Both the position numbers and the translations under genes were made by a program. A model generated the notes under the pieces. The model ran no database searches. It was not told where the DNA came from and saw only the letters and a program-made list of their open reading frames with translations. From a virus, in UHGV virus genome UHGV-1565976: a DNA stretch of 11,964 nucleotides; one strand, given 5' to 3'. Shown in pieces: positions 9,437-9,456 of this stretch. Each line of letters begins with the position of its first letter. Positions within the stretch are counted from its first letter, which is position 1.

Positions 9437-9456
9437 TACTGTATTTATGAACAGTG
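9437..9456. promoter_or_regulatory. LexA (SOS) box upstream of the KilA-N gene
   Basis: TACTGTATTTATGAACAGTG matches the E. coli consensus TACTG(TA)5CAGTA with CTGT-N8-ACAG intact; the only such site found in the window. Confidence 0.6.

What the first reader, a model, noticed from the sequence alone, without database searches (positions are those of the whole stretch)
9437..9456. Near-consensus SOS box in the rusA / KilA-N intergenic region
TACTGTATTTATGAACAGTG has the CTGT-N8-ACAG core and the TACTG start of E. coli LexA sites and is the only such site in the window. It marks the KilA-N/DUF968/Q unit, or at least its first gene, as DNA-damage-inducible, like the LexA-controlled antirepressors of coliphage 186 (Tum) and the Gifsy prophages.
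Basis: partly seen in the sequence, partly recalled or inferred. Interest (0 to 1): 0.65.

Follow-up and report, generated by a model that had tools for sequence, protein, structure and literature searches.

The report
SOS box before prophage kilA-N–Q operon
A good binding site for the host DNA-damage repressor LexA sits next to a conserved weak promoter in front of a prophage's kilA-N/DUF968/Q gene block, so these genes are probably switched on directly by DNA damage; this is a familiar kind of prophage wiring in a place where it had not been described.

Summary
On a LexA matrix built from 17 E. coli sites, each verified in K-12, it scores a heterology index of 6.0. That equals yebG and beats uvrA/ssb, and no window shuffle reached it.

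"The only such site" is wrong. A stronger box (4221-4240, HI 2.9) lies inside the cI-like repressor gene.

The comparative evidence is strong. Of 51 distinct 200-bp regions upstream of kilA-N homologues across Enterobacterales, 8 carry a LexA-type box (0.07 expected). In nine diverged spacers only the TG-N10-CAG core is invariant within the box. A TTGAxA-17-TAAGxT promoter always follows it 4-5 nt downstream.

My best reading is a host-LexA operator on an SOS-inducible secondary promoter for kilA-N, DUF968 and probably Q.

The antirepressor analogy is not supported. The repressor has its own S24 self-cleavage domain. The recognisable antirepressor module (C4/isrK RNAs plus a Rha protein) lies elsewhere. 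KilA-N shows no antirepressor signal.

The phage also encodes a truncated LexA (DNA-binding domain only), which is a possible alternative binder. I class this as a new member of a known kind, of moderate interest and untested experimentally.

The parts
9437..9456 (+). LexA-type SOS box TACTGTATTTATGAACAGTG (palindromic, so strand is nominal)
   Evidence: Sequence read. HI 6.00 / 21.8 bits on the verified K-12 matrix. 0 of 300 window shuffles reach it. T9440 G9441 and C9452 A9453 G9454 are the only invariant box columns across nine diverged spacers. E. coli and Shigella variants differ only at position 20, G or A.
9462..9467 (+). Predicted -35 hexamer TTGATA of the secondary promoter (P-kilA)
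   Evidence: Best + strand sigma-70 candidate in the spacer, 11.0 bits. The same aligned hexamer (TTGAAA/TTGAAG/TTGCAG) is the top candidate in the other group-A spacers and always starts 4-5 nt after the box. Taken alone it reaches only about the 95th percentile of shuffles.
9485..9490 (+). Predicted -10 hexamer TAAGTT, 17-nt spacer; transcription start inferred near 9497
   Evidence: Aligned TAAGGT/TAATGT/TAATCT/TAGTGT in the other genera. A9486 is invariant. The simple consensus scan missed it because only 3 of 6 positions match TATAAT.
9504..9528 (+). Leader hairpin: core GGGA-GTGCAG-TCCC 9510-9523, outer pairs 9504-9506 with 9526-9528
   Evidence: Present in most kilA-N homologues, including short-spacer SfII, with stems that change in a compensatory way: GGGA/TCCC, GGGC/GCCC, GGCGG/CCGCC. 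Covariation score 0.437 against 0.233 in shuffles, with the alignment register imperfect. MFE fold (z -1.2). No Rfam family. Role unknown.
9542..9549 (+). Shine-Dalgarno region GTGGAGAA of kilA-N
   Evidence: Invariant TGGAGAA in alignment A3. Lies 5-12 nt before the ATG at 9554.
9554..10369 (+). kilA-N gene (271 aa): KilA-N N-terminal domain, helical linker, C-terminal winged-helix-like domain
   Evidence: Pfam KilA-N 1.3e-15. PHROG 129 'transcriptional regulator'. The start matches the SfIV and PhiR49_1 annotations. AlphaFold model pLDDT 73.6; fold hits are KilA-N proteins only.
10371..11366 (+). DUF968 / HNH-like gene, 1 nt after kilA-N
   Evidence: Pfam DUF968 2.7e-80. It follows kilA-N in 48 of 50 homologous loci.
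11369..11776 (+). Antiterminator Q gene, 2 nt after DUF968 (the start codon may be slightly further downstream)
   Evidence: Pfam Phage_antitermQ 3.3e-52. No convincing + strand terminator between 9400 and 11400; terminator-like hits in the region are not above shuffle expectation.

Best explanation
The box is a genuine operator for the host LexA repressor. It is attached to a weak secondary promoter that was inserted between rusA and kilA-N in a subset of SfII/SfIV-type lambdoid prophages.

In an undamaged lysogen, LexA occupies roughly -60 to -41 relative to the inferred start near 9497. That abuts the -35 hexamer and covers the position of an UP element, so the promoter stays shut. After DNA damage, RecA-stimulated LexA cleavage frees the promoter. 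kilA-N, DUF968 and probably Q are then transcribed without waiting for read-through from the early operon.

Relatives with a 16-21 bp spacer lack both box and promoter and must rely on read-through alone.

Shown here: the site, its matrix score, its enrichment and footprint across genera, the co-conserved promoter hexamers and the tight gene packing. Inferred: LexA occupancy in vivo, the transcription start, repression from this position, and that transcription reaches Q.
For: - Score: HI 6.00 / 21.8 bits, in the middle of verified E. coli operators. This falls in the low-HI 'binder' mode that a published survey reports for E. coli K-12 (peak 7.34, against 22.32 for background; PMC12527982).
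- Chance: 0 of 300 window shuffles reach this score.
- Position: 17 sites with HI <= 11 occur in 397.5 kb around 50 kilA-N homologues. Seven of them lie 83-137 nt before the kilA-N ATG; the window's box is at -117.
- Enrichment: 8 of 51 distinct 200-bp upstream regions have HI <= 11, against a shuffle mean of 0.07 (max 2). Sixteen have HI <= 13.5, against 0.40.
- Footprint: in nine spacers with 62% mean column identity, the box keeps only TG-N10-CAG invariant.
- Promoter: the top-scoring + strand promoter candidate in each group-A spacer is the same aligned TTGAxA-17-TAAGxT, 4-5 nt after the box.
- Independent solutions: unrelated spacer types place a LexA-like box over the -35 (Pantoea, Rosenbergiella) or the -10 (Serratia, Rahnella, Erwinia, Edwardsiella) of their own best promoter candidate.
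- Host rather than phage factor: the box occurs in loci with no phage lexA-like gene within 4 kb upstream (L134, L137, L138).
- Population: 186 of 5,426 complete E. coli genomes carry the spacer. The variants I examined change the box only at position 20, and towards consensus.
- Precedent: the Gifsy prophages have a LexA box and promoter in the equivalent region between the replication genes and the late regulator (PMC3121763).
Against: - There are no experimental data on binding, transcription start or induction, and I found no paper on it.
- The promoter is weak by consensus (-10 matches 3 of 6). Alone it is not above shuffled sequence (11.0 bits against a 95th percentile of 11.4).
- The box lies wholly upstream of the predicted -35, centred near -50.5. 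That is an unusual position for a LexA operator and more typical of activator sites.
- In several other genera the left arm reads GTGGAT instead of CTGKAT, giving weak scores (HI 9-17.6).
- Relatives such as SfII manage without the box.
Confidence: 0.64

Rival explanations
1. The box is used mainly, or additionally, by the phage's own truncated LexA: the 108-aa DNA-binding-domain-only protein encoded at 8673-8999, two genes upstream. It could act as an uncleavable stand-in that re-closes the site after host LexA is destroyed. It could instead act as an activator from a site just upstream of the -35, as GIL01 gp6 does.
For: - The protein is a clear LexA N-domain homologue (Pfam LexA_DNA_bind 2.9e-19; E. 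coli LexA residues 2-70, E 6e-16).
- Its recognition helix reads SVNAAVEHL, against SPNAAEEHL in LexA. S39, N41 and the R64-G65-I66 wing are invariant in 13 homologues.
- It has no S24 domain, so RecA cannot inactivate it.
- The box centre near -50 is upstream of the -35, a position typical of activators.
- Seven of the eight group-A loci with upstream sequence encode the protein next to rusA.
- Precedent: GIL01 gp6, a truncated LexA homologue, activates a late promoter (PMC6182141).
Against: - LexA-type boxes upstream of kilA-N occur without the gene (L134, L137, L138), and the gene occurs without the box (SfII, L128, L131, L136).
- Across the 50 loci, 6 of 13 with the gene and 11 of 37 without it carry any box with HI <= 11, which is no clear association.
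- GIL01 gp6 recognises its own palindrome, not the LexA box.
- Position 44 or 45 of the recognition helix varies within the phage family, so its specificity is unknown.
Confidence: 0.13
2. LexA binds the site, but its effect is not promoter repression of kilA-N. It might be a mild roadblock to read-through from rusA. It might control a leftward transcript. It might be a site with little regulatory consequence, as was long argued for ssb.
For: The box does not overlap the predicted core promoter. The ssb case shows that a box of similar quality (HI 6.98) placed far from the relevant promoter gives weak, long-disputed control (PMC9505508). A minus-strand terminator-like hairpin lies at 9387-9366.
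Against: The -35/-10 pair is co-conserved with the box at fixed spacing in nine spacers. Other lineages put the box directly over the -35 or -10. The best leftward promoter candidate in the window's spacer is poor (7.4 bits, below the shuffle mean of 7.7). There is no leftward gene to serve: an 11-bp indel in natural variants rules out the 68-aa minus-strand ORF at 9348-9554.
Confidence: 0.14
3. The match is a chance or decaying sequence with no function.
For: A/T-rich spacers throw up partial palindromes. Only about 3% of E. coli genomes carry this spacer.
Against: 0 of 300 shuffles reach the score. Enrichment upstream of kilA-N homologues is more than 100-fold over composition-matched shuffles. 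The invariant columns are exactly the LexA contact core.
Confidence: 0.03

Closest known systems
LexA-controlled dinI-antirepressor operons of Salmonella Gifsy-1/-2/-3 (Lemire, Figueroa-Bossi and Bossi 2011, PMC3121763)
   Same: A host-LexA box with its own promoter lies outside the immunity region, between the replication genes and the late regulator, and is preceded by a palindrome. It makes a block of prophage genes directly SOS-inducible.
   Different: Gifsy: dinI homologue plus a small antirepressor, serving a short repressor that cannot cleave itself. Here: KilA-N, DUF968/HNH and Q, in a phage whose repressor has an S24 self-cleavage domain. No antirepressor activity is indicated for KilA-N. 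The box sits upstream of the -35.
Coliphage 186 tum and N15 antC (LexA-repressed antirepressor genes; named in PMC3121763, details from my own knowledge)
   Same: A single LexA operator makes one prophage promoter damage-inducible.
   Different: Their products are defined antirepressors needed for induction. The product here is a KilA-N DNA-binding-type protein of unknown role, and induction probably does not depend on it.
Bacillus tectivirus GIL01: LexA boxes at late promoter P3, plus gp6, a truncated LexA homologue (Fornelos et al. 2018, PMC6182141)
   Same: Host LexA boxes sit on a promoter governing late functions. The same phage encodes a LexA DNA-binding-domain-only protein.
   Different: GIL01 has no dedicated repressor. 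gp6 binds a different palindrome centred at -43.5 and activates. The LexA boxes lie downstream of the -35, and gp7 assists LexA. Nothing comparable has been shown here.
Chromosomal E. coli SOS operators of middling strength (yebG, sulA, uvrA/ssb)
   Same: Same 20-bp architecture and the same score range on the same matrix.
   Different: In the uvrA promoter the box overlaps the -35 (PMC9505508), and in chromosomal SOS promoters generally the box overlaps the -35, -10 or start site (my own knowledge). This one abuts the -35 from upstream.

Membership tests
E. coli-type LexA operator (SOS box) | 20-bp palindrome with a CTGT-N8-ACAG core | tested here: met
   TACTGTATTTATGAACAGTG at 9437-9456 matches the consensus at 16 of 20 positions.
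E. coli-type LexA operator (SOS box) | Heterology index or matrix score within the range of proven operators | tested here: met
   HI 6.00 against 2.05-9.53 for 17 verified K-12 sites. The untrained tisB site scored 2.03, and background is >= 9.17. The published low-HI mode for K-12 peaks at 7.34.
E. coli-type LexA operator (SOS box) | Positioned on or against a promoter so that bound LexA hinders RNA polymerase | tested here: inconclusive
   A conserved predicted promoter starts 5 nt after the box, which puts the box at about -60 to -41. The start site has not been mapped, and the box abuts the core elements rather than overlapping them.
E. coli-type LexA operator (SOS box) | Conserved in orthologous regulatory regions | tested here: met
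   The TG-N10-CAG core is invariant in nine diverged spacers. 8 of 51 upstream regions have HI <= 11, against 0.07 expected.
E. coli-type LexA operator (SOS box) | Bound by LexA in vitro or in vivo; downstream gene induced by damage in a lexA-dependent way | not testable with these tools
   Needs EMSA or footprinting, ChIP, and reporter or RNA assays in lexA(Def) and lexA3 backgrounds.
LexA-controlled prophage antirepressor module (186 Tum, N15 AntC, Gifsy GfoA/GftA/GfhA) | LexA box at the promoter of the gene, outside the immunity region | tested here: met
   The box and predicted promoter lie 5 kb to the right of the cI/cro region.
LexA-controlled prophage antirepressor module (186 Tum, N15 AntC, Gifsy GfoA/GftA/GfhA) | Cognate prophage repressor lacks self-cleavage and depends on the antirepressor for induction | tested here: not met
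   The repressor at 3757-4449 has HTH and Peptidase_S24 domains (5.8e-19), an Ala-Gly site in SASAGNG, and GDSM and VKRL motifs. A trans-acting role on other prophages, as for Fels-1 FsoA, is not excluded.
LexA-controlled prophage antirepressor module (186 Tum, N15 AntC, Gifsy GfoA/GftA/GfhA) | Gene product is an antirepressor (binds and inactivates a repressor) | tested here: inconclusive
   I found no similarity to antirepressor families: Pfam gives KilA-N only, PHROG 129 is 'transcriptional regulator', and PDB and BFVD fold hits are KilA-N proteins only. Antirepressor-annotated PHROGs instead match the Rha protein at 5348-6496. The activity itself is not testable here.
Truncated LexA homologue acting as a transcription factor (GIL01 gp6 type), considered for the 8673-8999 gene as an alternative binder | LexA winged-helix DNA-binding domain without the S24 cleavage domain | tested here: met
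   Pfam LexA_DNA_bind covers residues 1-65 of 108. The protein aligns to E. coli LexA 2-70 and ends 20 residues after an AGE motif.
Truncated LexA homologue acting as a transcription factor (GIL01 gp6 type), considered for the 8673-8999 gene as an alternative binder | Binds a defined site at a phage promoter and changes its activity | not testable with these tools
   There is no co-occurrence signal between the gene and the box. Binding specificity is unknown.

The most novel reading that the evidence does not exclude
The phage may run its own small SOS sub-circuit built from three parts: the box at 9437-9456, the stronger box inside the cI gene (4221-4240), and an uncleavable LexA DNA-binding-domain protein (8673-8999).

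In this reading, cleavage of host LexA fires a repressor-independent promoter that feeds the antiterminator Q, a shortcut from DNA damage to late genes. The phage's truncated LexA, made from the early operon, then re-occupies LexA boxes on the phage, and perhaps across the host SOS regulon, to time or cap that expression.
Probability: 0.1. Interest if true: 0.7.

Novelty: new member of a known kind. Interest (0 to 1): 0.42.

Why it matters
If the promoter works as inferred, about 3% of sequenced E. coli genomes, and relatives in many Enterobacterales, carry prophages in which DNA damage switches on the KilA-N/DUF968/Q block directly. These include O104:H4, O157:H7, O111 and O55 strains and Shigella serotype-converting phage SfIV. 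Expression would not have to wait for repressor cleavage and read-through of the early operon.

Q is the switch for lysis and virion genes, so a LexA-gated route to Q would alter the timing and threshold of induction by antibiotics such as quinolones. It would also give a handle on the unknown functions of KilA-N and DUF968, two of the commonest uncharacterised genes next to Q.

The general principle, host LexA wired into prophage promoters, is already established. The gain is therefore a new, testable instance rather than a new mechanism.

Tried and rejected
- Small ORFs in the spacer. The 68-aa minus-strand ORF (9348-9554) and a 36-codon + strand ORF from the ATG inside the box (9447-9557, read by eye) are not genes. 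Natural variants carry an 11-bp deletion, and the frame is not kept in other genera.
- Leftward promoter at the box. The best minus-strand candidate scores 7.4 bits, below the shuffle mean.
- Known RNA families in the spacer. None reached threshold; the weak hits have E 1.5-4.
- Exact-match search for the 19-mer in IMG/VR. It gave 105 stretches. Almost all are the same E. coli spacer, so they say nothing about divergence. A few unrelated hits lie inside coding sequence or in tandem boxes of a GC-rich genome.
- cI relatives in IMG/VR. All were 99-100% identical, so there was no divergence to exploit.
- Link between the phage lexA-like gene and LexA boxes across the 50 loci. I found no clear association.
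- Function of KilA-N from sequence or structure. PDB sequence search found nothing. The AlphaFold model (pLDDT 73.6) matched only KilA-N proteins, with weak winged-helix hits for the C-terminal domain.
- Literature. No paper links a LexA box to KilA-N, DUF968 or SfIV. The LexA-DNA structure paper could not be opened, so statements about which LexA residues contact bases rest on my memory only.
- Consensus alifold of the leader hairpin. It returned no structure because loop lengths differ between sequences. A named-structure count and per-sequence hairpin search were used instead.
- Stx link. The copy in O104:H4 C227-11 is not the Stx prophage.

Full report
**What is there**

The window is the early/regulatory half of an SfIV/PhiR49_1-type lambdoid prophage. 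It is 99.5% identical to Escherichia phage PhiR49_1 and 98.8% to Shigella phage SfIV over 8996-10369. Pfam gives the following gene order:
- A cI-like repressor with HTH and Peptidase_S24 domains (3757-4449, minus strand).
- On the plus strand, in order: a Cro-like gene (4547), a CII/YmfL-like gene (4800) and an Ash/Rha protein (5348-6496).
- Next come replication genes, then Dam (7990-8676).
- Then a 108-aa protein that is only a LexA DNA-binding domain (8673-8999), followed by RusA (8996-9391).
- A 162-bp spacer follows.
- After the spacer: KilA-N (9554-10369), DUF968/HNH (10371-11366) and antiterminator Q (11369-11776).

The reported sequence TACTGTATTTATGAACAGTG is exactly at 9437-9456, in that spacer.

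**Is it more than chance?**

I recalled 18 E. coli LexA sites from the classical compilations and looked for each in MG1655 DNA fetched for the purpose. Seventeen were found verbatim at the expected promoter and were used for a symmetrised matrix.

On the Berg-von Hippel heterology index (HI), the training sites span 2.05 (umuDC) to 9.53 (dinB). The real tisB/istR box, which was not in the training set, scored 2.03. In 152.8 kb of K-12 sequence the best non-SOS hits were 9.17, 11.44 and 12.15.

The finding scores HI 6.00 (21.8 bits). That level is the same as yebG (6.01). It lies between sulA (5.42) and uvrA/ssb (6.87; published 6.98, PMC9505508). A published survey places the LexA-binding mode of E. 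coli K-12 at HI about 7.3 and background at about 22 (PMC12527982). None of 300 shuffles of the window produced a site this good.

**A correction to the observation**

The box is not the only one in the window. CTGT-N8-ACAG occurs three times, against 0.14 expected. TACTGTTTTTACATACAGTA at 4221-4240 is closer to consensus (3 mismatches) and scores HI 2.88, as good as umuDC or dinD. It lies inside the repressor gene. The third match (5451) scores poorly. After these two sites the next best in the window has HI 15.1.

**Distribution**

The spacer occurs in 186 of 5,426 complete E. coli genomes, always on the chromosome. Carriers include O104:H4 C227-11, O157:H7 FRIK944, O111:H8, O55:H7 CB9615 and S88.

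Variants with an 11-bp deletion or up to 10% divergence keep the box. The only change is G to A at position 20, which is towards consensus (SfIV and strain AZ187). The 11-bp indel also shows that the spacer is non-coding.

SfII, the Stx2a_1447-type phages and others have a 20-bp rusA/kilA-N junction with no box. The box therefore belongs to an insertion of roughly 130 bp.

**Comparative test**

I aligned KilA-N homologues found in the protein database and used the alignment to fetch 50 loci from species-representative genomes of Enterobacterales, at 46-69% protein identity. kilA-N is followed by DUF968 in 48 of the 50, often by Q, and is usually preceded by rusA.

Scanning all 397.5 kb with the LexA matrix gave 17 sites with HI <= 11. 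Seven of them lie 83-137 nt before the kilA-N start; the window's box is at -117. The binomial figure (3.6e-7) was computed for 7 of 20 sites. With the true total of 17 it is conservative.

With composition-matched shuffles of the 51 distinct 200-bp upstream regions:
- 8 regions reach HI <= 11, against a shuffle mean of 0.07 (maximum 2).
- 16 regions reach HI <= 13.5, against 0.40 (maximum 3).

Loci with 16-21 bp spacers have no box.

**Footprint and promoter**

Nine spacers of the same type come from E. coli, Enterobacter, Superficieibacter, Atlantibacter, Leclercia, Phytobacter, Raoultella, Kosakonia and Citrobacter. They align with 62% mean column identity. Within the 20-bp box the only invariant columns are T9440 G9441 and C9452 A9453 G9454, which is the TG-N10-CAG core of a LexA site.

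Three or four nucleotides further on there is a conserved (G)GTTGAAA. Seventeen nucleotides after that there is TAAGGT, TAATGT or TAAGTT.

I scored promoters with hexamer frequencies recalled from the classical compilations. In each of these spacers the top + strand candidate is this same aligned pair, starting 4-5 nt after the box. In the window the -35 is TTGATA (9462-9467) and the -10 is TAAGTT (9485-9490), scoring 11.0 bits. On its own that is only about the 95th percentile of shuffled spacers, and the simple consensus scan missed it. The argument therefore rests on conservation of register, not on strength.

Unrelated spacer types give independent solutions:
- In Pantoea and Rosenbergiella the LexA-like box overlaps the -35 of the best candidate.
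- In Serratia, Rahnella, Erwinia (13.8 bits) and Edwardsiella it overlaps the -10.

This recurrence in different architectures is the strongest sign that LexA control of a promoter in front of kilA-N is selected.

**Mechanism proposed**

The inferred start is near 9497, which places the box at about -60 to -41, centred near -50.5. I infer that bound LexA blocks the UP-element/alpha-CTD position and crowds sigma region 4 at a promoter whose weak -10 makes it dependent on upstream contacts.

After LexA cleavage the promoter would fire. It would give a transcript with a leader of about 57 nt, comprising a conserved hairpin (9504-9528) and a GGAG ribosome-binding site, followed by kilA-N. DUF968 and Q follow with 1-2 nt gaps and with no terminator signal above chance, so they are probably co-transcribed.

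There is no terminator after rusA on the + strand. In infection or full induction the same genes are therefore also reached by read-through. The box and promoter add a repressor-independent, damage-dependent input.

Binding, the start site, repression from this position and extension into Q are all inferences.

**Why the antirepressor analogy fails as a statement of function**

In 186, N15 and the Gifsy phages, LexA-controlled antirepressors exist because the repressors cannot cleave themselves (PMC3121763). Here the repressor has the full self-cleavage apparatus: an S24 domain, an Ala-Gly site in SASAGNG, and GDSM and VKRL motifs.

The phage's recognisable antirepressor module is elsewhere. 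Rfam finds isrK (5708-5784) and the C4 antisense RNA (5809-5896) inside the long Ash/Rha ORF. The Rha portion of that ORF matches PHROGs annotated as anti-repressor. This arrangement resembles the P1 immI c4-ant module.

The KilA-N protein matches PHROG 129, 'transcriptional regulator'. It has no solved homologue. Its model (pLDDT 73.6) retrieves only KilA-N proteins, with weak winged-helix hits for the C-terminal domain.

The topological analogy with Gifsy is good: a LexA box and promoter between the replication genes and the late regulator, preceded by a palindrome (here 9366-9387). A trans-acting role on other prophages, as shown for Fels-1 FsoA, cannot be excluded.

**The rival worth keeping**

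The 108-aa protein at 8673-8999 is a LexA N-domain homologue (E. coli LexA residues 2-70, E 6e-16). Ser39, Asn41 and the Arg64-Gly65-Ile66 wing are invariant in 13 homologues. It also has a conserved C-terminal tail, and it has no protease domain.

GIL01 gp6 is a truncated LexA homologue that activates a late promoter from a site at -43.5, although it recognises its own palindrome (PMC6182141). A site just upstream of a -35 is where activators sit, so this protein could use the box.

Against this, boxes occur without the gene and the gene occurs without boxes, with no clear association across the 50 loci.

**Verdict**

The regulatory reading, an SOS-inducible kilA-N unit, is well supported by comparative evidence and remains unproven experimentally. 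The functional analogy to antirepressors is not supported.

Host LexA wired into prophage promoters is a known kind of system. I found no description of this particular instance, so I class it as a new member of a known kind, of moderate interest. The interest is raised somewhat by the link to Q, the second box inside cI and the phage-encoded truncated LexA.

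Noticed in passing
window 4221-4240: This is the strongest LexA-type box in the window: TACTGTTTTTACATACAGTA, HI 2.88, 3 mismatches to consensus. It lies inside the cI-like repressor ORF, at codons 70-77 in the linker between the HTH and S24 domains. Two repressor homologues at about 90% and 95% protein identity (L131, L136) keep it, with one LexA-tolerated change each, while the flanking linker codons diverge. Its purpose is unknown. Possible promoters are a leftward TTTACC-17-TACTGT (about 8 bits by hand; it could give a C-terminal-domain-only fragment from Met92) and a rightward TTGACG at 4247. Neither is convincing.
   Followed up: partly
window 8673-8999 (+): A 108-aa protein consisting of a LexA DNA-binding domain without the S24 protease domain (Pfam 2.9e-19; aligns to E. 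coli LexA 2-70). Its recognition helix is SVNAAVEHL. It has a conserved C-terminal tail and keeps an 'AGE' at the position of the LexA cleavage site. It is widespread next to rusA in related prophages. The nearest studied analogue is GIL01 gp6. Its target sites are unknown.
   Followed up: partly
window 5708-5784 and 5809-5896 (+): Rfam gathering-level hits to isrK (58.7 bits) and C4 antisense RNA (78.8 bits) fall inside the long 'Ash/Rha' ORF at 5348-6496. The 382-aa ORF is therefore probably over-called. The region looks like a P1 immI-type c4-RNA/antirepressor module.
   Followed up: no
window 9504-9528; also L002 (SfII) and most of L122-L171, just upstream of the kilA-N ribosome-binding site: A conserved stem-loop with a (G/T)TGCAG loop (TGTACGG or TATACGG in Proteus and Morganella). 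It lies 10-30 nt before the GTGGAG Shine-Dalgarno of kilA-N. It is present whether or not the spacer carries a LexA box, and its stems change in a compensatory way. It has no U-tract, so it is not an obvious terminator, and it matches no Rfam family. Its role is unknown.
   Followed up: partly
L124 7156-7175; also L141, L161, L170 (2.5-3.9 kb downstream of the kilA-N start): A good LexA-type box (TACTGTAAAAATAAACAGTG, HI 5.4) recurs. In L124, the one locus I examined, it covers codons 4-10 of a DNA methyltransferase gene downstream of Q. It may be held by the coding sequence (KNTVKINSV), may be regulatory, or both. It lies outside this window.
   Followed up: partly
window 9366-9387: An 8-bp-stem palindrome (CGAGTTGC-AAATTA-GCAACTCG) lies at the very end of rusA, 49 nt before the box. 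It looks like a terminator only on the minus strand, where it is followed by CTTTTTCG. It recalls the palindromes that precede the Gifsy LexA boxes. It is specific to the E. coli-type spacer.
   Followed up: no
L078 (IMG/VR contig), around 105-136: The same 19-mer occurs in an unrelated GC-rich genome as the second of two overlapping LexA boxes (CACTGGTTATATTTACAGTA followed by TACTGTATTTATGAACAGTG), immediately before an ATG. It looks like a typical SOS gene promoter and is unrelated to this prophage.
   Followed up: no
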